Positions 36,723-48,649 of a stretch of 64,000 nt of DNA are shown here, piece after piece. Within the stretch, counting starts at the first letter, position 1; the number at the start of each line of letters is the position of its first letter. The translations under genes were made by a program, and so were the position numbers. Origin of the DNA: Flavobacteriales bacterium (lineage in GTDB: Bacteria; Bacteroidota; Bacteroidia; Flavobacteriales_F; PHOS-HE28). The stretch is taken from assembly GCA_016700415.1 (NCBI GenBank), contig CP065018.1, forward strand, positions 2,389,894-2,453,893. Reading direction: 5' to 3'. A model generated the notes under the pieces. The model had not been told where the DNA came from, did no database searches, and was given only the letters and a program-made list of their open reading frames with translations.

Positions 36723-39176
36723 CTACTCCCAGTTCGGTGCCTCGTGCCGCTCCTCGTAGATGTTGGTGTGGGAGCCCTTCTTCCCGAAGCAGTCCAGGTC
36801 CAGATCGCCGATGCCGTCCGGCTTCGCGAAATCCCCTTTGCTGATGGTGATCGTGCTGTCGGCGTAGACTTTGTTCATGTAGTAGCCGTAGATCGGCAGG
36901 GCCATGTTGGCCCCTTGGCCTTTGTCGGTCCTGCTGAAACGCACGCTGCGGTCCGCGGCGCCGGTCCACACGCCGGTCACCAGGTCCGGGGTGATGCCGA
37001 TGAACCAGCCGTCGCTGTTGTTCTGGGTGGTACCCGTCTTGCCTGCGGTGGGATACTTGATGTTGGCATATTTCGCCCTGTTGCCCCAGCCCATGCGCAG
37101 CCTCATGCCGGTACCCACGGTCTTTCCCGTGCTGGGGTTGTAGGCACCGTCCACTACTCCCTTGAGCATTTCCAGCATGATATAGGAGGTCCGTGGATCA
37201 AGCGCCTCCTCAGTCTTCGGGGTCATGTCGAAGATGGTGTTCCCGCTCTTGTCCTCGATGCGCGTGAAGACCACCGGCCTGATATACACGCCGTCGTTGG
37301 CGAAGGTGGAGAACGCGCCGACCATCTCCTCCAGCGTGAGGTCCGCCACGCCCAAGCATAACGATGGCACGGGATCCATCGGGCTCTTCACGCCCATGTG
37401 GCGTGCCAGTGTGATCACCGATTGCGGACCGTATTGCTTCATCAGCCAGGCCGTGATGGTGTTCATGGAATTGGCCAAGGCATACTTGATGGTGACCATG
37501 CCACCGTATTCATTATCGCTGTTCTGCGGGCACCAGTCCGGCTGCCCTGCGGGCATGTCGAAGCAGGTCTTTTGGTTCGGCAATTCCAGGCAGGGTTTCA
37601 ACCCGTCCCGGATGGCAGTGGCATAGACGAAGGGCTTGAAGGTGGAACCCACCTGCCGTCGCGCTTGTGCCACATGGTCGAACTGGAAGTGCTTGTAGTC
37701 GATGCCGCCCACCCAGGCCTTCACGAAGCCGGTGTGCGGGTCCATGCTCAGCAAGCCGCTCTGGAGGAAGCTTTTGTAGTATCGGATGCTGTCGTTCGGG
37801 GACATGACCGTGTCCACTTCGCCGTGCCAGCTGAACACGGTCATGTGCGTGGGGGTCTCGAATTGCTTCTCGATGGCCTTTTCATCCAGCACCGGCCACC
37901 AGGTGTCGCACCCGCCCTTGTCCGGGTCGCAATGGAACATGGACTTCCCGTCATGCACCCGCTTCACGATGTAAGCTGCGGGCCGCTGGCAGTTGGGGCA
38001 TTGTTTCCCAACATCGGTGCGGTACCTGTCACTGCGTTTGCGGGCGGTGTTCATGATGCCCTCCACTTCCTCTTTGCTCACCCGGAAGTCGAAGGGATTG
38101 TTCTTCTTTTTAGCGAGGTCCTTGAAGAACTGCTCCTGCAATTCTGTGGAGAGGTGCTCCCGCAAGCCCCACTCGGCATAGCTCTGCATCCGGCGGTCAA
38201 TGGTGGTGTAGATCTTAAGGCCGTCGGTATAGATGTCATACGCGGAACCGTCCGGCTTGGCCAGTCGGAGCTTCCCGGTCTCCGGGTCCTTCTCGCTGAA
38301 CATTTTCTGAAGTTCGCCGCGTAAGGTTTCCCTCAGGTACGGCGCGGGGCCTTCGGTATGGTCGATCCGCTGGAAGTCAAGCCCGAGCGGCAGCACTTTC
38401 AACGAGTCGTATTGCTGCTTGTTCAGGGATCCGTTTTTCACCATTTGCGCCAGCACCACCATGCGGCGGGTGATGGTGGTGTCGGGCCGGCGGAGCGGGT
38501 TGAAGAGCGCCGGGTTCTTGCACATGCCGACCAGCATGGCGGCCTGTTCGATGCGCAGGGAATCCGGCGTGGTGTTGAAATAGACACGGGCCGCGGAATT
38601 GATGCCCACCGCCTGATTGATCCAATCGAAACGATTGAGGTACATGGCGATGATCTCGTCCTTGGTGTACTCGCGCTCGAGCCGTGCCGAGATGATCCAC
38701 TCCTGGAATTTTTGGAAGATGCGGCCCACGATGTCCCGCCGGACATCGTGGAAGAGCATCTTGGCCAACTGCTGGGTGATGGTGCTGGCCCCGCCGCGTT
38801 TGCCGAGGAAGATCGCCGCGCGTGCCGTTCCGCGCACATCGATGCCGCTGTGGTCCCGGAAACGTTCATCCTCGGTGGCCAACAAGGCCTGCACCACGTA
38901 TGGGTTGATGTGCGCATAGTCCACCGGGATGCGGTTCTCCCTGTAGTACTGCCCCATGATGGAGCCATCGCTGAAGAGCACCGCCGTGGCCAGGTCGCTC
39001 CGGGGATTTTGTAGTTCCGTGGTACTGGGCAGGCCCTTACTTCCCGACGCGACCAACAGTATCACGAGCAGACCAAGCACGGGCCCGAGCACCACCGTCC
39101 ACCACAAGGCATACCATCGCCCACCGGTCTTAGCTTGCTTCTTTCCCTTGGTAGCCATGGTCCTTTTTCCGTTCAA
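36723..39176 (-). CDS. mrcA: penicillin-binding protein 1A (bifunctional transglycosylase/transpeptidase)
   Basis: 817 aa with an N-terminal membrane anchor, GT51 motifs (…ATEDERFRDHSGID…) and transpeptidase SxxK (STFKPF), SxN and KTG(T) (KTGTT) motifs. It shares a 4-nt overlap with gldH. Confidence 0.9.
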   Translation of the reverse strand: MNGKRTMATKGKKQAKTGGRWYALWWTVVLGPVLGLLVILLVASGSKGLPSTTELQNPRSDLATAVLFSDGSIMGQYYRENRIPVDYAHINPYVVQALLATEDERFRDHSGIDVRGTARAAIFLGKRGGASTITQQLAKMLFHDVRRDIVGRIFQKFQEWIISARLEREYTKDEIIAMYLNRFDWINQAVGINSAARVYFNTTPDSLRIEQAAMLVGMCKNPALFNPLRRPDTTITRRMVVLAQMVKNGSLNKQQYDSLKVLPLGLDFQRIDHTEGPAPYLRETLRGELQKMFSEKDPETGKLRLAKPDGSAYDIYTDGLKIYTTIDRRMQSYAEWGLREHLSTELQEQFFKDLAKKKNNPFDFRVSKEEVEGIMNTARKRSDRYRTDVGKQCPNCQRPAAYIVKRVHDGKSMFHCDPDKGGCDTWWPVLDEKAIEKQFETPTHMTVFSWHGEVDTVMSPNDSIRYYKSFLQSGLLSMDPHTGFVKAWVGGIDYKHFQFDHVAQARRQVGSTFKPFVYATAIRDGLKPCLELPNQKTCFDMPAGQPDWCPQNSDNEYGGMVTIKYALANSMNTITAWLMKQYGPQSVITLARHMGVKSPMDPVPSLCLGVADLTLEEMVGAFSTFANDGVYIRPVVFTRIEDKSGNTIFDMTPKTEEALDPRTSYIMLEMLKGVVDGAYNPSTGKTVGTGMRLRMGWGNRAKYANIKYPTAGKTGTTQNNSDGWFIGITPDLVTGVWTGAADRSVRFSRTDKGQGANMALPIYGYYMNKVYADSTITISKGDFAKPDGIGDLDLDCFGKKGSHTNIYEERHEAPNWE

Positions 39177-46841: not shown

Positions 46842-47552
46842 GCGATGCCAGCGCAATTATCTCCCCGGAATCTGTTTCTCGCCACAGCGCTCCTGGCCGT
46901 GGCGAACGTCGCTTCGGCGCAGCAGAAGCCCGTGGAAAAACGGCACCTTGTGGAGATCAAGACCACAGCGGGGCGCATGGTGGTGGAGCTGTACAACGAG
47001 ACACCGGTCCATCGCGACAACTTCCTGAAGCTGGTCCGCGAGCACTATTACGACAGCACGTTGTTCCACCGGGTGATCCCGGATTTCATGATCCAGGGCG
47101 GCGACCCGGACAGCCGCAAAGCCGAAGACCATGCTGTGGCGTTGGGGCAAGGTGGTCCCGGATATACGCTCCCTGCTGAGATCGACACCTCGTTCATCCA
47201 CCGCAAGGGCGCGCTGGCAGCCGCGCGCGGCGATGACGTCGATCCGGAAAAACGCAGCAGCGGCAGCCAGTTCTATATCGTGGAAGGCCGCAAATGGCCC
47301 ACGGCCGATCTGAAAAAGCTCATGGCCCGGATCAACAGTGATCGTCCGGACAGTCTCGCGGTCCATTACACCCCCGACCAAATGGAGACCTACAAGACGT
47401 TGGGCGGCGCTCCACACTTGGATGGTGGCTATACCGTGTTCGGCCAGGTAGTGGCCGGCATGGACGTCCTGGATCTTATCGCGAACCAACCCTGTGACGG
47501 AATGGACCGTCCGCTTGCAGATATCCGCGTTTGGATGCGCGAACTCCAATGA
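46842..47552 (+). CDS. peptidylprolyl isomerase (cyclophilin type), secreted
   Basis: A signal peptide (…LLAVANVASAQQ) is followed by the cyclophilin core (…FHRVIPDFMIQGGDP…). Confidence 0.9.
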   Translation, partial: AMPAQLSPRNLFLATALLAVANVASAQQKPVEKRHLVEIKTTAGRMVVELYNETPVHRDNFLKLVREHYYDSTLFHRVIPDFMIQGGDPDSRKAEDHAVALGQGGPGYTLPAEIDTSFIHRKGALAAARGDDVDPEKRSSGSQFYIVEGRKWPTADLKKLMARINSDRPDSLAVHYTPDQMETYKTLGGAPHLDGGYTVFGQVVAGMDVLDLIANQPCDGMDRPLADIRVWMRELQ

Positions 47553-48649
47553 ACCTGAAAGAACGGATCGAAGCCGTGGAGGCTGAATTGACCGCGGCTG
47601 TCGCGGCATCCGCTGAGGCCGTTGAGGCTTTCCGTGTGGAAATGCTCGGCCGCAACGGAAAAGTGACCGCCCTGCTGGACGCCTTCAAGGAGGTGCCCGC
47701 AGAGGAAAAGCGCCTTTGGGGCCAACGGCTGAACCAGCTGAAAAGCGCCGCCCGAACGCGCTGGGAGGAGCTGAAGGCCGCCGCAGAGGCCACCCCCACC
47801 AAGGCAGCAGGACCCGTGGGCGACCTCACGCGGCCCGCTCTCACCGAGGCCACAGGAAGCCTGCATCCCATCAGCATCATCCGCCAGCGCATAGTGGACG
47901 TGTTCGCGCGGATCGGCTACACCGTGAGCCAAGGTCCCGAGGTGGAGGACGACCACCACAACTTCGGTGCGCTCAACTTCCCTCCGGACCATCCGGCGCG
48001 GGACATGCAGGACACGTTCTTCGTTGAGGACCTTGATCACACTGCGAGGGAGAGGGGTGAGGCCCTCACCCCCGACCCCTCTCCCGGGGAGAGGGGAAGT
48101 CTGGCGCTACGCACACATACCAGCAGCGTGCAAGTACGCGTGATGGAGAGCGGTGCTCCTCCGATCCGCACCATTTCCCCGGGCCGTGTCTATCGCAACG
48201 AGGCCATCAGCGCACGGGCGCATTGCATGTTCCACCAGGTGGAAGGCTTGTACGTGGACAAGGGCGTGAGCTTCGCGGAGCTGAAGGGCACGCTGGACCA
48301 TTTCGCCAAGAGCATGTTCGGGCCGGAGGTGAAGATCCGCTTACGTCCGAGCTACTTCCCGTTCACGGAGCCGAGCGCCGAGGTGGACATGAGCTGCACC
48401 ATCTGTGGCGGCAGCGGCTGCGCCGTGTGCAAGCACAGCGGATGGGTGGAGATCATGGGTTGCGGCATGGTGGACCCTGCCGTGCTGTCCAATTGCAACA
48501 TCGACCCGGAGGTGTATAGCGGCTTCGCTTTCGGCATGGGCGTGGAGCGCATCGCACAGCTGATCTATCGCGTGCCGGACCTGCGGCTGTATTGGGAGAA
48601 CGACGTGCGCTTCCTGGAACAGTTCACCGACGGCGCCTTCCGTGGCTGA
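47549..48649 (+). CDS. pheS: phenylalanine--tRNA ligase alpha subunit
   Basis: ATGA overlap with the upstream PPIase stop. Class II aaRS motifs are present (…GRVYRNE… FHQVEGL… RPSYFPFTEPSAEVD…). It carries an in-frame palindromic insertion and a Cys4 insert (CTICGGSGCAVC). Confidence 0.95.
   Translation: MNLKERIEAVEAELTAAVAASAEAVEAFRVEMLGRNGKVTALLDAFKEVPAEEKRLWGQRLNQLKSAARTRWEELKAAAEATPTKAAGPVGDLTRPALTEATGSLHPISIIRQRIVDVFARIGYTVSQGPEVEDDHHNFGALNFPPDHPARDMQDTFFVEDLDHTARERGEALTPDPSPGERGSLALRTHTSSVQVRVMESGAPPIRTISPGRVYRNEAISARAHCMFHQVEGLYVDKGVSFAELKGTLDHFAKSMFGPEVKIRLRPSYFPFTEPSAEVDMSCTICGGSGCAVCKHSGWVEIMGCGMVDPAVLSNCNIDPEVYSGFAFGMGVERIAQLIYRVPDLRLYWENDVRFLEQFTDGAFRG
48046..48097. repeat. nested palindromic element inserted in-frame in pheS
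   Basis: GAGGGAGAGGGG-TGAGG|CCCTCACCCC-CGA-CCCCTCTCCC-G-GGGAGAGGGG. Two adjacent perfect hairpins of 9- and 10-bp stems are present, and the first GGGAGAGGGG is a direct repeat of the last. It encodes ~RERGEALTPDPSPGERGS, which is absent at this position in the E. coli PheS sequence as recalled. Confidence 0.75.

What the first reader, a model, noticed from the sequence alone, without database searches (positions are those of the whole stretch)
48040..48105. Palindromic mini-element inserted in-frame inside the essential pheS gene
A ~50-bp sequence (48046..48097) consists of two back-to-back perfect hairpins (GGGGTGAGG/CCTCACCCC and CCCCTCTCCC/GGGAGAGGGG) bounded by a direct repeat of GGGAGAGGGG. 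It sits inside the pheS ORF without breaking the frame. It adds ~18-22 residues (…RERGEALTPDPSPGERGS…) between the conserved DTF and LRTHTS segments, where E. coli PheS has only ~7 residues. This is the hallmark of an in-frame palindromic-element insertion, the Rickettsia palindromic element (RPE)-like phenomenon, which is not commonly described for Bacteroidota.
Basis: partly seen in the sequence, partly recalled or inferred. Interest (0 to 1): 0.62.

Follow-up and report, generated by a model that had tools for sequence, protein, structure and literature searches.

The report
BoxC/triplex-motif repeat in-frame in pheS
A roughly 50-base GC-rich palindrome inside the essential pheS gene is a copy of a known pan-bacterial repeat (BoxC / PIT / "triplex motif") translated as a harmless extra protein loop, and following it up suggests this 30-year-old orphan repeat often sits in frame in genes and often brackets a small nuclease gene (DUF559).

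Summary
Window 48048-48096 holds GGGAGAGGGG three times and two perfect hairpins, in frame in pheS (47549-48649).

It is a lineage-specific insert. The MQDTFF-ALRTHTS turn is 7-8 aa in most Flavobacteriales relatives and 2-3 aa in solved PheS structures, but 28 aa here.

The element is not new. It is one complete unit (48064-48096) plus an inverted partial unit (48048-62) of the BoxC/PIT/TM G/C-rich "intrastrand triplex motif" repeat (Holder 2015).
- Its exact 20-mer occurs in at least 120 stretches from about 13 phyla and in 99 viral stretches.
- It occurs only once in this 64-kb window.

What looks new:
- TM units lie in frame inside real genes in many phyla, although they were reported as always intergenic in E. 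coli.
- This PheS turn carries TM units in at least 7 scattered lineages.
- TM units bracket DUF559 nuclease genes. This held for 6 of 6 TM-blind loci and for E. coli ycjD.

The insert evolves without protein-level constraint. The best reading is a selfish or neutral passenger in a tolerant loop. The mobilisation mechanism is unproven, and a DUF559 cassette is only a lead.

The parts
47549..48649 (+). pheS coding sequence (phenylalanine-tRNA ligase alpha subunit). The mechanical ORF starts at TTG 47531. The ATG at 47549 gives the 366-aa product that matches database PheS.
   Evidence: ORF. (99% identity to a Flavobacteriales MAG PheS of 366 aa, with PF01409 and PF02912). (matches solved PheS structures at E=4e-102).
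48026..48106 (+). Hypervariable turn of PheS between the invariant MQDTFF(V) and (A)LRTHTS segments. Here it reads EDLDHTARERGEALTPDPSPGERGSLA.
   Evidence: the turn is 7-8 aa in most relatives and 12-47 aa in scattered lineages; it has no counterpart in 4P71 or 3PCO; 8 of the 19 aa differences from a 95%-identical orthologue fall here, and the nucleotide differences are spread 4/4/4 over codon positions.
48064..48096 (+). Complete TM (BoxC/PIT) unit, C-rich strand on the coding strand. Block 1 is CCTCACCCC (48064-72). Block 2 is CCCCTCTCC (48076-84). Block 3 is GGAGAGGGG (48088-96). Block 3 is the reverse complement of block 2, and block 1 is the mirror image of block 2 with one T>A change. 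It is translated as LTPDPSPGERG.
   Evidence: architecture. (the only hit of a general three-block detector in 64 kb). (the exact 20-mer 48065-84 is found in at least 120 genome stretches). (aligns to E. coli TMECO no. 20).
48048..48062 (-). Partial, inverted TM unit. GGGAGAGGGGTGAGG is the reverse complement of CCTCACCCCTCTCCC. It is joined to the full unit through GGGGTGAGG-C-CCTCACCCC. This is the 'palindromic/tandem inverted' configuration known for BoxC/TM in E. coli.
   Evidence: (tandem inverted TM pairs described in PMC4666352). (this half is already decayed in the 95%-identical orthologue L002).
48051..48083 (+). The 33-nt (11-codon) block that is absent from the nearest PheS genes lacking the element. 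The placement depends on the alignment and is approximate. The G/A-rich sequence on both sides is homologous to the relatives' loop (...GAAG / TCGAGAAGGGGCAAG...).
   Evidence: MAFFT alignment of the window and L002 against L125, L126, L128 and L127.

Best explanation
**What it is.** The segment is a passenger copy of the pan-bacterial G/C-rich BoxC / PIT / 'triplex motif' (TM) repeat. It consists of one full unit plus an inverted partial unit, copied into the DNA that encodes a short surface turn of PheS.

**Why it persists (shown).**
- The turn tolerates almost any sequence.
- A TM unit is free of stop codons in 5 of 6 frames.
- The net gain is a multiple of three: +33 nt relative to the nearest relatives and +60 nt relative to the base state.
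- It is translated into a Pro/Gly/Ser/Glu/Arg-rich peptide that is under no detectable protein-level selection.
- On this evidence it does nothing for PheRS. It is selfish or neutral DNA, and its presence goes with the local indel instability that has been reported for TM loci.

**How TM units get copied (inferred, roughly 0.3-0.4).** The route is not established. My favoured route is that TM units are the terminal inverted repeats, and the solo or paired MITE-like derivatives, of a 0.5-0.6-kb cassette of the form TM> - DUF559 (Vsr-like PD-(D/E)XK nuclease) - <TM. On this view they are mobilised or copied in trans. Integration into pheS may have been helped by microhomology between the TM arm (GAGAGGGG) and the G/A-rich sequence already in the loop (GAGAAGGGG).
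For: **Identity as a TM unit.**
- It has the three-block architecture with mirror symmetry.
- It aligns closely with E. coli TMECO no. 20, CCCTCTCCCTGTGGGAGAGGGTCGGGGTGAGGGC.
- The exact 20-mer occurs in at least 120 genome stretches from about 13 phyla. The flanks are unrelated and the hairpin loops vary. Only about 1 match is expected by chance for a uniform 20-mer in 596 Gb (my arithmetic).

**It is an insertion.**
- The base-state turn is 7-8 aa in relatives and 2-3 aa in solved structures.
- A 33-nt block is absent from the nearest relatives.

**It is a neutral passenger.**
- Compared with a 91%-identical gene, the insert has 12 differences in 75 nt, spread 4/4/4 over codon positions. The rest of the gene has 88 in 1026 nt, of which 71 are at third positions. 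Eight of the 19 amino-acid changes lie in the insert, and the partial unit has decayed.
- Five of six frames are open.

**The same thing happens elsewhere.** TM units sit in frame inside Tex, NRPS, alpha-2-macroglobulin, CobB/Q, GltB, DnaE, MutL, GlnE, a histidine kinase, MFS, DAO, LeuRS and HsdM. One hsdM gene carries 5-6 units that its 60%-identical homologue lacks.

**The pheS turn is recurrently hit.** TM peptides or DNA are found in at least 7 scattered PheS lineages, each with TM-less sister lineages. One has two tandem units.

**Link to DUF559.**
- Inverted TM units bracket DUF559 ORFs in L070, L055, L106 and L043.
- All 6 DUF559 proteins chosen without regard to TM have a TM unit within 94 nt of an ORF end, and 4 of the 6 have one on both sides. 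The background rate is about 8 hits per 658 kb.
- E. coli ycjD ends inside a degenerate TM unit and is followed by TMECO no. 9.
- Three of 80 viral DUF559 loci are bracketed by TM pairs.
- The cassettes sit in unrelated contexts: between the POR alpha and beta genes, between trpB and trpA, next to dnaG, and inside hsdM and leuS.
Against: - No second TM copy and no DUF559 gene is present in the 64-kb window or in about 0.65 Mb of related Flavobacteriales loci. A local source or enzyme is therefore not shown.
- No PheS carrying a DUF559 domain was found.
- None of 99 TM-bearing viral stretches has a DUF559 gene, and only 5 of 120 TM-selected genome loci do.
- Most of the more distant viral DUF559 genes have no TM unit.
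- No target-site duplication was seen.
- A roughly 100-aa nuclease is not by itself a transposase. TM units could equally be the preferred landing site of a DUF559 gene rather than its ends.
- The 21-nt hairpin is unchanged between the two 91%-identical genes (0 differences in 21 nt, about 3% probability at the insert's own rate). This could mean DNA- or RNA-level constraint rather than pure neutrality.
- Recurrence at one turn in several lineages is hard to explain by tolerance alone.
Confidence: 0.62

Rival explanations
1. Enzyme-free templated insertion. The TM sequence was copied into the loop by replication template switching or ectopic gene conversion from another TM copy. The process would be triggered by hairpin or triplex (non-B) DNA and seeded by microhomology. 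The association with DUF559 would be incidental, or would reflect DUF559 genes landing in TM pairs.
For: - The nearest relatives lacking the element already carry GAGAAGGGG and GAAG where the TM arms now sit.
- In other lineages the TM unit replaces part of the old loop rather than simply adding to it. L001 gains a net 21 nt for a 34-nt unit.
- Other PheS turns contain unrelated small inverted duplications, typical of template-switch products. L206 has GGCCATG...CATGGCC, which reuses the native 3' flank. L207 has GCGAAGC-GGT-GCTTCGC.
- TM loci are reported to be unstable, with slippage and stalling proposed as the cause (PMC4666352).
- No DUF559 gene is found near pheS or in viral TM loci.
Against: - It needs a donor TM copy, and none is seen within 64 kb.
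- It does not explain why an exact 20-mer, including the unpaired third block, is conserved across about 13 phyla and in phages.
- It does not explain the regular TM>-DUF559-<TM bracket found in unrelated contexts.
Confidence: 0.25
2. Selected function. The hairpin or triplex in pheS DNA or mRNA, or the extra peptide, is maintained because it does something. Possibilities include a translational pause, mRNA stabilisation, or an adaptive variable surface on PheRS.
For: - TM units recur at the same turn in at least 7 PheS lineages.
- The 21-nt hairpin shows 0 differences between genes that are 9% diverged, while the rest of the insert has 12 differences in 54 nt.
- Some phage genomes carry more than 20 co-oriented TM units and tandem arrays in intergenic DNA, which hints at a strand-specific role there.
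Against: - Sister lineages lack the element, carry unrelated inserts, or keep the 7-8-aa base state.
- Decayed copies exist (L146, P0072, and the left half of L002).
- Differences within the insert are not biased by codon position.
- PIT/TM elements showed no promoter or terminator activity and no in vivo triplex in E. coli (PMC4666352).
- There is no Rfam match.
Confidence: 0.08
3. Not an element at all. It would be an ancestral or compositionally driven G/C-rich loop that looks palindromic by chance, or an assembly artefact.
For: The genome is 60% G+C, and the fold energy is unremarkable against shuffles.
Against: - There is an exact 20-nt identity with sequences in at least 120 genome stretches and 99 viral stretches.
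- There are 3 copies of the 10-mer against 0.2 expected.
- The same insert is present in independent assemblies: P0001 from an NCBI MAG and L002 from a Logan assembly.
- The relatives' base state is 7-8 aa.
Confidence: 0.02

Closest known systems
BoxC / PIT (potential intrastrand triplex) / TM(ECO) G/C-rich triplex-motif repeats (Bergler 1992 and Bachellier 1990s, from memory; Hoyne et al. 2000 and 2002; Holder et al. 2015, PMC4666352)
   Same: - It has the same three-block design: a C-block, the complementary G-block, and a mirror G-block with T opposite A.
- The sequence is near-identical (E. coli no. 20 is CCCTCTCCC-TGT-GGGAGAGGG-TCG-GGGTGAGGG; here the minus strand reads CCCCTCTCC-CCG-GGAGAGGGG-TCG-GGGGTGAGG).
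- It occurs as single units and as closely spaced inverted pairs.
- It is spread across many bacterial phyla.
- It is associated with local indel variability.
   Different: - It uses a 4-G rather than a 3-G register, so the published E. coli regular expression does not match.
- It lies inside a coding sequence and is translated, whereas the 23 E. coli copies are 'always located intergenically'.
- It also occurs in phage contigs, whereas the 2015 study found no association with phages or plasmids.
- Its link to DUF559 genes is, as far as the searchable literature shows, not described.
Rickettsia palindromic elements (RPE; Ogata et al. 2000, as summarised in PMC10969869)
   Same: It is a palindromic repeat inserted in frame in unrelated, often essential, genes. 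It adds a peptide segment that is compatible with protein function. It is interpreted as selfish DNA.
   Different: - RPEs are about 150 bp, fall into ten Rickettsia-specific families, and encode a conserved peptide. The TM unit is 33-36 nt, G/C-rich and pan-bacterial, and is used in five different frames.
- No sequence relationship was tested or is expected.
REP / BIME / REPIN elements mobilised by RAYT (TnpA_REP) transposases
   Same: They are short (20-40 nt) palindromes, often in inverted pairs, present in many copies, and proposed to be mobilised in trans by a single-copy gene that they flank.
   Different: - No GTAG-type 5' tetranucleotide is present.
- TM has an extra unpaired mirror block.
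- The flanked gene here is a DUF559 PD-(D/E)XK-type nuclease, not an IS200/IS605-like tyrosine (HUH) transposase.
- REPs are by definition extragenic.
Bacterial MITEs that create in-frame fusions (ERIC, Correia, Nezha, QMITE; review PMC10969869)
   Same: They have terminal inverted repeats around a short or deleted core. They are non-autonomous. They are occasionally intragenic and ORF-compatible.
   Different: The TM unit is much shorter. No target-site duplication was seen. No transposase-encoding parent IS is known. The candidate parent encodes only a small nuclease.

Membership tests
BoxC / PIT / TM G/C-rich intrastrand triplex motif | Three consecutive blocks: a pyrimidine block, its reverse-complement purine block (forming a hairpin), and a third block that is the mirror image of one arm. 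| tested here: met
   block 3 (GGAGAGGGG) is the reverse complement of block 2 (CCCCTCTCC). Block 1 (CCTCACCCC) is the mirror image of block 2 with one T>A change; it is the only hit of a general three-block detector in the 64-kb window.
BoxC / PIT / TM G/C-rich intrastrand triplex motif | Matches the published E. coli consensus CCCTCNCCC N3-6 GGGNGAGGG N3 GGGNGAGGG. | tested here: not met
   there is no strict match on either strand, because of the 4-G register and a nominal first loop of 1-3 nt. A relaxed pattern matches, and the local alignment to TMECO no. 20 is near-identical with two 1-nt gaps. That consensus was defined for E. coli only.
BoxC / PIT / TM G/C-rich intrastrand triplex motif | Highly conserved sequence recurring in many unrelated bacterial genomes with unrelated flanks. 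| tested here: met
it occurs in 99 viral stretches.
BoxC / PIT / TM G/C-rich intrastrand triplex motif | Multiple dispersed copies within the same genome. | tested here: inconclusive
   There is one copy in the 64-kb window and none in the flanks of related pheS loci.
BoxC / PIT / TM G/C-rich intrastrand triplex motif | Intergenic location (reported for all 23 E. coli K-12 copies). | tested here: not met
   it lies inside the pheS ORF. Searches show many other in-frame copies, so this looks like an E. coli observation rather than a property of the family.
BoxC / PIT / TM G/C-rich intrastrand triplex motif | The isolated strand folds into a stable intramolecular triplex in vitro. | not testable with these tools
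   This needs CD or NMR on oligonucleotides, as in PMC4666352. ViennaRNA models only hairpins.
Rickettsia palindromic elements (RPE) | In-frame insertion of a palindromic repeat into protein-coding genes. | tested here: met
Rickettsia palindromic elements (RPE) | Units of about 100-150 bp belonging to the RPE sequence families of Rickettsia. | tested here: not met
   The unit is 33 nt (49 nt with the partial inverted unit) and the organism is a Flavobacteriales MAG. RPE size is taken from PMC10969869. Sequence similarity to RPE consensus sequences was not computed.
REP / REPIN (RAYT-associated) | Conserved 5' GTAG-like tetranucleotide next to the palindrome, and an associated RAYT gene. | tested here: not met
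   No GTAG-type head is present at either end of the 131 aligned copies. The gene found bracketed by the units is DUF559, not a RAYT. A systematic RAYT search was not done.
MITE (miniature inverted-repeat transposable element) | Terminal inverted repeats plus a target-site duplication, with a parent element encoding the enzyme. | tested here: inconclusive
   Inverted TM pairs around short cores exist (L061, the L209 second pair, L006). A candidate parent cassette TM>-DUF559-<TM also exists. However, no target-site duplication was evident at any junction that was inspected.

The most novel reading that the evidence does not exclude
BoxC/PIT/TM units are the terminal inverted repeats, and the solo or paired MITE-like remnants, of a pan-bacterial and phage-borne mobile cassette. 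Its only gene is a DUF559 (Vsr-like) nuclease. This system inserts in frame into conserved, often essential genes (PheS, LeuRS, DnaE, MutL, GltB, Tex, HsdM and others) across more than 10 phyla. That would be an RPE-like 'selfish DNA in coding genes' phenomenon on a bacterial-domain scale, with the PheS MQDTFF/ALRTHTS turn as a recurrent target.
Probability: 0.3. Interest if true: 0.85.

Novelty: new variant of a known kind. Interest (0 to 1): 0.6.

Why it matters
BoxC/PIT/TM repeats have been known since the early 1990s. They form very stable triplexes in vitro, are among the most conserved short repeats across bacteria, and mark unstable loci. No function, origin or means of spread has been found for them.

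This locus shows three things.
- They are not restricted to intergenic DNA. They are written into proteins, including the catalytic subunit of an essential aminoacyl-tRNA synthetase, and can hit the same turn repeatedly.
- They provide a general, cheap source of loop insertions in conserved proteins. This matters for annotation, because 'LTPDPSP.ERG', 'PLP.GEGSGVR' and 'GRGVGGE' peptides are repeat-derived, and for interpreting indels in phylogenetic marker genes.
- The regular TM>-DUF559-<TM bracket gives a concrete, testable candidate for the machinery behind the repeat, and a first functional hypothesis for a very large domain of unknown function.

Tried and rejected
- **Second copy in the window or near related pheS genes.** None was found with the 10-mer, with a fuzzy 20-mer, or with a general three-block detector.
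- **Rfam.** Only chance-level miRNA or snoRNA hits, E >= 1.
- **Structure prediction of this PheS from 35 close homologues.** Mean pLDDT was 50 and the catalytic domain was below 50, so the model is unusable for mapping the loop. I rely on the sequence alignment to solved PheS structures instead.
- **Chimeric query (PheS flanks plus DUF559) to look for a PheS still carrying the nuclease cassette.** All top 120 hits are ordinary PheS proteins of at most 384 aa, so this was negative.
- **DUF559 next to viral TM copies.** None in 99 stretches.
- **PheS among the other TM-bearing loci.** None.
- **Strict E. coli TMECO regular expression.** No match.
- **Protein-level screen of 120 DUF559 proteins for TM-encoded tails.** My patterns flagged only 3, and a handful more are visible by eye. 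Most ORFs stop before the repeat, so DNA flanks had to be fetched.
- **Target-site duplications at TM or cassette junctions.** None was recognised.
- **Ideas considered and dropped.** These were intein or homing-endonuclease insertion in pheS (no splicing or nuclease domain is present), a CRISPR-like array, a transcription terminator inside the gene (no T-run), and a de novo low-complexity loop (excluded by the exact 20-mer identity).
- **Literature search for DUF559, ycjD, BoxC or triplex links.** Nothing beyond PMC4666352.
Full report
**1. The observation**

The ORF 47531..48649 (+) encodes PheS. From the ATG at 47549 it gives 366 aa. That product is 99% identical to a PheS from a 'Flavobacteriales bacterium' MAG and carries PF01409 and PF02912.

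Inside it, the 10-mer GGGAGAGGGG occurs at 48048-57 (+), 48076-85 (-) and 48087-96 (+).
- This is 3 matches against 0.20 expected, and no shuffle reached 3.
- There is no other copy in the 64 kb.

Two perfect hairpins are confirmed: GGGGTGAGG/CCTCACCCC and CCCCTCTCCC/GGGAGAGGGG. They are two of only six perfect hairpins with stem >=9 in the window.

The frame is unbroken, and the peptide is ...MQDTFFVEDLDHTARERGEALTPDPSPGERGSLALRTHTS.... The predicted fold energy is not unusual for such G/C-rich sequence (z = -1.34). The evidence is the repeat architecture, not the thermodynamics.

**2. It is a lineage-specific insertion in a hypervariable turn**

Among the 120 closest PheS proteins (72-99% identity, all Flavobacteriales MAGs and metagenomes), the segment between MQDTFF and LRTHTS is usually 7-8 aa, for example VDGPGELA or VDLGSDMA. 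It ranges up to 47 aa in scattered lineages. More distant Bacteroidota have the same short state, VEKNPDMI.

In solved P. aeruginosa and E. coli PheS, 2-3 residues stand where this protein has residues 160-183.

A DNA alignment shows two steps:
- an older expansion to 17 aa (VQELVTSSEVEKGQELA-type), shared with the nearest relatives;
- then a further 33-nt block present only in the window and its 95-99% identical relatives.

My AlphaFold attempt was too poor to map the turn in three dimensions (pLDDT 50). From established knowledge of PheRS, the RTHTS strand contributes active-site residues, and the turn before it is a beta-hairpin tip. Surface exposure is therefore inferred, not shown.

**3. 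What the element is**

Relatives carry the core CCTCACCCCCGACCCCTCTCC-N3-4-GGAGAGGGGAG directly after the FFV codon (L001, L003, L208).

The hits come from Planctomycetota, Chloroflexota, Bacteroidota, Cyanobacteriota, Pseudomonadota, Acidobacteriota, Armatimonadota, Verrucomicrobiota, Patescibacteria, Thermotogota, Actinomycetota, Thermodesulfobacteriota and Latescibacterota.

When aligned, all 131 copies share (C)CTCACCCCCGACCCCTCTCC, then a variable loop, then GGAGAGGGGAG, with unrelated flanks.

A full-text search for the arms led to Holder et al. 2015 (PMC4666352). That paper establishes the following:
- This is the G/C-rich 'triplex motif' (TM), earlier called BoxC and PIT.
- The E. coli consensus is CCCTCNCCC-N3-6-GGGNGAGGG-N3-GGGNGAGGG.
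- E. coli K-12 has 23 copies, 'always located intergenically', five times as tandem inverted pairs.
- The motif is present in more than 260 genomes.
- It has no promoter or terminator activity.
- TM loci are hotspots of small indels.

The window's minus strand reads CCCCTCTCC-CCG-GGAGAGGGG-TCG-GGGGTGAGG, followed by G-CCTCACCCCTCTCCC. That is one complete unit (48064-48096) plus an inverted partial unit (48048-62), the 'palindromic' configuration.
- Block 3 is the reverse complement of block 2.
- Block 1 is the mirror image of block 2 with a single T>A change.
- The strict E. coli pattern fails because this variant uses G4/C4 runs. A relaxed pattern and a direct alignment to TMECO no. 20 match.

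I therefore file it as a TM-family unit of a 4-G register variant. Rfam has nothing for it.

**4. How it behaves in pheS**

The window and L002 pheS genes are 91% identical at the DNA level.

| Region | Differences | Codon positions 1/2/3 |
|---|---|---|
| Outside the insert | 88 of 1026 nt | 15/2/71 |
| Inside the insert | 12 of 75 nt | 4/4/4 |

- Outside the insert, 71 of the 88 differences are at third codon positions.
- Eight of the 19 amino-acid changes in the whole protein fall in the insert.
- The partial inverted unit is already degraded in L002 (GGGGAGAAGGTCGAGG).
- The insert peptide is therefore unconstrained.
- The 21-nt hairpin itself has no change. At the insert's own rate this has a probability of about 0.03 (my arithmetic). 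That is a weak hint of DNA-level maintenance or homogenisation.
- A TM unit is open in five of six frames: LTPDPSPGERG, SPPTPLPGRGE, PHPRPLSRGEG, SPLPGRGVGGE and PLSPGEGSGVR. Only one frame has a TGA.

**5. The PheS turn is recurrently hit**

TM-encoded peptides or DNA occur in:
- the window/P0001/P0002 clade;
- P0046, P0054, P0055, P0076, P0080 and P0115;
- P0259, which has two tandem units, and P0266;
- sequence-variant TM units (CCCCATCCC-GG-CCTTCCCC-GGT-GGGGAAGG) in P0026, P0035, P0241 and L178, and another variant in L206;
- decayed copies in L146 and P0072.

On a neighbour-joining tree built from the protein with the turn masked, these lineages are scattered, and each has sister lineages without TM. 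The point of entry also varies: after V, VG, IA, VS or VDLGT.

Of the three detector hits in 0.63 Mb of pheS-centred loci fetched without regard to TM, one lies in the pheS turn.

So there were either many independent gains or spread of TM-bearing alleles by recombination. I could not distinguish these.

The turn also holds unrelated small hairpin inserts in L206 and L207. This fits a generally indel-prone, tolerant site.

**6. In-frame TM units are common elsewhere**

Of the 130 exact-20-mer copies in loci L005-L124, 49 lie in stop-free stretches with at least 60 codons on both sides.

Pfam scans confirmed real genes, with domains on both sides of the unit or around it, for at least 15 of them:
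- Tex
- an NRPS (two inverted units in the PCP-R linker)
- alpha-2-macroglobulin
- CobB/CobQ
- GltB (inside GATase_2)
- DnaE (in the PHP domain)
- MutL (in the linker)
- GlnE
- a histidine kinase (inside HATPase_c)
- a TIR-TPR protein
- an MFS transporter
- a DAO oxidoreductase (from a Flavobacteriales MAG)
- LeuRS
- two HsdM proteins

An Akkermansiaceae hsdM carries 5-6 in-frame TM units at three sites where its 60%-identical Thermodesulfobacteriota homologue has none.

The statement 'always intergenic' therefore holds for E. coli, not for the family. A 2024 MITE review describes RPEs and only speculates that similar in-frame insertion happens in other prokaryotes. It does not mention BoxC or triplex motifs.

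**7. A lead on mobility: DUF559**

Two of the in-frame cases, LeuRS (L106) and HsdM (L043), contain a whole DUF559 (PF04480, Vsr-like nuclease) domain whose C-terminus abuts the TM unit.

Mapping TM units showed DUF559 ORFs bracketed by inverted units, with the C-rich strand upstream and the inverted unit downstream. This holds in L070, L055, L106 and L043.

I then took DUF559 proteins chosen without reference to TM (profile search) and fetched their DNA.
- All six proteins examined (P0184, P0222, P0166, P0203, P0141, P0138) have a TM or TM-variant unit within 4-94 nt of an ORF end.
- Four of the six have one on both sides.
- The detector's background rate is about 8 hits per 658 kb.
- The cassettes sit in unrelated places: between the POR alpha and beta genes, between trpB and trpA, and beside dnaG.

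In E. coli K-12 the DUF559 gene ycjD ends (...RRSPSP*) inside a degenerate TM hairpin. It is followed by a duplicated 3' gene fragment and then TMECO no. 9. From memory, this fabI-ycjD spacer is where BoxC was first noticed.

The link has limits:
- Only 5 of 120 TM-selected genome loci have a DUF559 gene.
- None of 99 TM-bearing viral stretches has one.
- Only 3 of 80 more distant viral DUF559 genes are bracketed.
- No PheS carrying DUF559 was found.
- There is no DUF559 gene in this window.
- No target-site duplications were seen.

The association is clearly non-random for one DUF559 clade. The data cannot say whether TM units are the ends of a DUF559 cassette or its preferred landing pad. 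I found no paper that links the two.

**8. Phages**

The 20-mer occurs in 99 viral stretches. Some phage contigs carry more than 20 co-oriented copies and 72-nt tandem arrays in intergenic DNA. Phages are thus plausible vehicles for the cross-phylum spread, contrary to the 2015 impression.

**9. Verdict**

It is an in-frame, lineage-specific insertion of a palindromic repeat, an RPE-like phenomenon.

The element itself is a known pan-bacterial repeat, not a new Bacteroidota element, and its dispersal within this genome is untested.

The most likely account is a selfish or neutral TM passenger in a tolerant, indel-prone turn of PheS (about 0.6). An enzyme-free template-switch origin is the main rival for the copying step (about 0.25), and a selected function is unlikely (about 0.1).

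The parts worth following up are the breadth of in-frame TM insertion in conserved genes, the recurrent hits in this PheS turn, and the TM>-DUF559-<TM module.

Noticed in passing
L070:1626-2142; L055:2819-3262; L209:1442-1952; L405:754-1302; L399:693-1234; L402:527-1277; L222:815-1473; L235:821-1467; L237:796-1421: Modules of about 0.5-0.65 kb in which a DUF559 (PF04480) nuclease ORF is bracketed by inverted TM/BoxC units. They are inserted in unrelated contexts: between the POR alpha and beta genes, between trpB and trpA, next to dnaG, and in viral contigs. L237 has the opposite bracket orientation.
   Followed up: partly
L106:2-2983 (-) and L043:2630-4675 (+), L055:2319-4616 (-): Whole DUF559 nuclease domains, with TM units at their edges, lie in frame inside a leucyl-tRNA synthetase (994-aa ORF) and inside two HsdM methyltransferases from different phyla. 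In both HsdM proteins the insertion is at the same N6_Mtase profile position (235 of 311). Whether these host proteins are functional is unknown.
   Followed up: partly
L205:1230-2040 (E. coli K-12, NC_000913.3 1351029-1351839): ycjD (DUF559) ends inside a degenerate TM hairpin. Downstream there is a roughly 50-nt duplicate of the ycjD 3' end, followed by TMECO no. 9. This looks like a remnant of a second cassette end.
   Followed up: partly
L055:2319-4616 (-) compared with L043: One Akkermansiaceae hsdM gene carries 5-6 in-frame TM units at three extra sites that are absent from its 60%-identical homologue. A single gene can therefore accumulate many units.
   Followed up: yes
L310:1700-2900 and other pieces of IMGVR_UViG_3300020057_000061 (L301, L317, L324, L331, L342, L350, L355); also L329/L325, L369/L345, L339, L336, L320: Some phage contigs carry 5 to more than 20 exact copies of the TM 20-mer, all on one strand. 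These include intergenic tandem arrays with a 72-nt period (agaagcctcaccgacgacgagcaaagacg + TM). The strand bias suggests a role tied to transcription or replication direction.
   Followed up: no
L207:196-1326 and L206:4001-5089 (PheS turn): Other PheS lineages carry unrelated small perfect hairpins in the same turn (GCGAAGC-GGT-GCTTCGC, GCACGC-ATG-GCGTGC). One inverted duplication reuses the native 3' flank (GGCCATG...CATGGCC). These look like template-switch products.
   Followed up: partly
P0259 (PheS, 326 aa, partial) and P0266: P0259 has two tandem TM-encoded peptides in the turn (LTPGPSPVERGEG twice). In P0266 the TM unit sits after VDLGT, a different entry point from most of the others. 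The DNA was not fetched.
   Followed up: no
PheS turn in P0044, P0047, P0057, P0058, P0060, P0071, P0108, P0112, P0115, P0266, P0270, P0282, P0284: A second recurring peptide, (V/R)SPS(G/A)AE(G/D), encoded by ...GTCAGCCCGAGCGGAGCCGAGGGC..., appears in scattered lineages and often just downstream of a TM unit. It is not resolved whether this is an older shared loop state or another repeat.
   Followed up: no
window:59746-59785: A perfect 40-nt palindrome, AAATCCCCCTTCCCGACCACGTGGTCGGGAAGGGGGATTT, lies between convergent ORFs 58870-59724 (+) and 59798-60340 (-). It looks like a bidirectional terminator and is not a TM unit.
   Followed up: partly
window:50782-50819 and 38726-38751: Two further strong hairpins. 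One has a 16-bp stem (GTGATCAGTGCCCCGA...TCGGGGCACTGATCAC) at the junction of two minus-strand ORFs. The other has an 11-bp stem (CCACGATGTCC...GGACATCGTGG). Neither was examined further.
   Followed up: no
one search hit list (P0121-P0240): Most close DUF559 homologues come from contigs of only 0.5-3 kb. This is expected if the TM-bracketed cassette is a multi-copy repeat that breaks metagenome assemblies.
   Followed up: no
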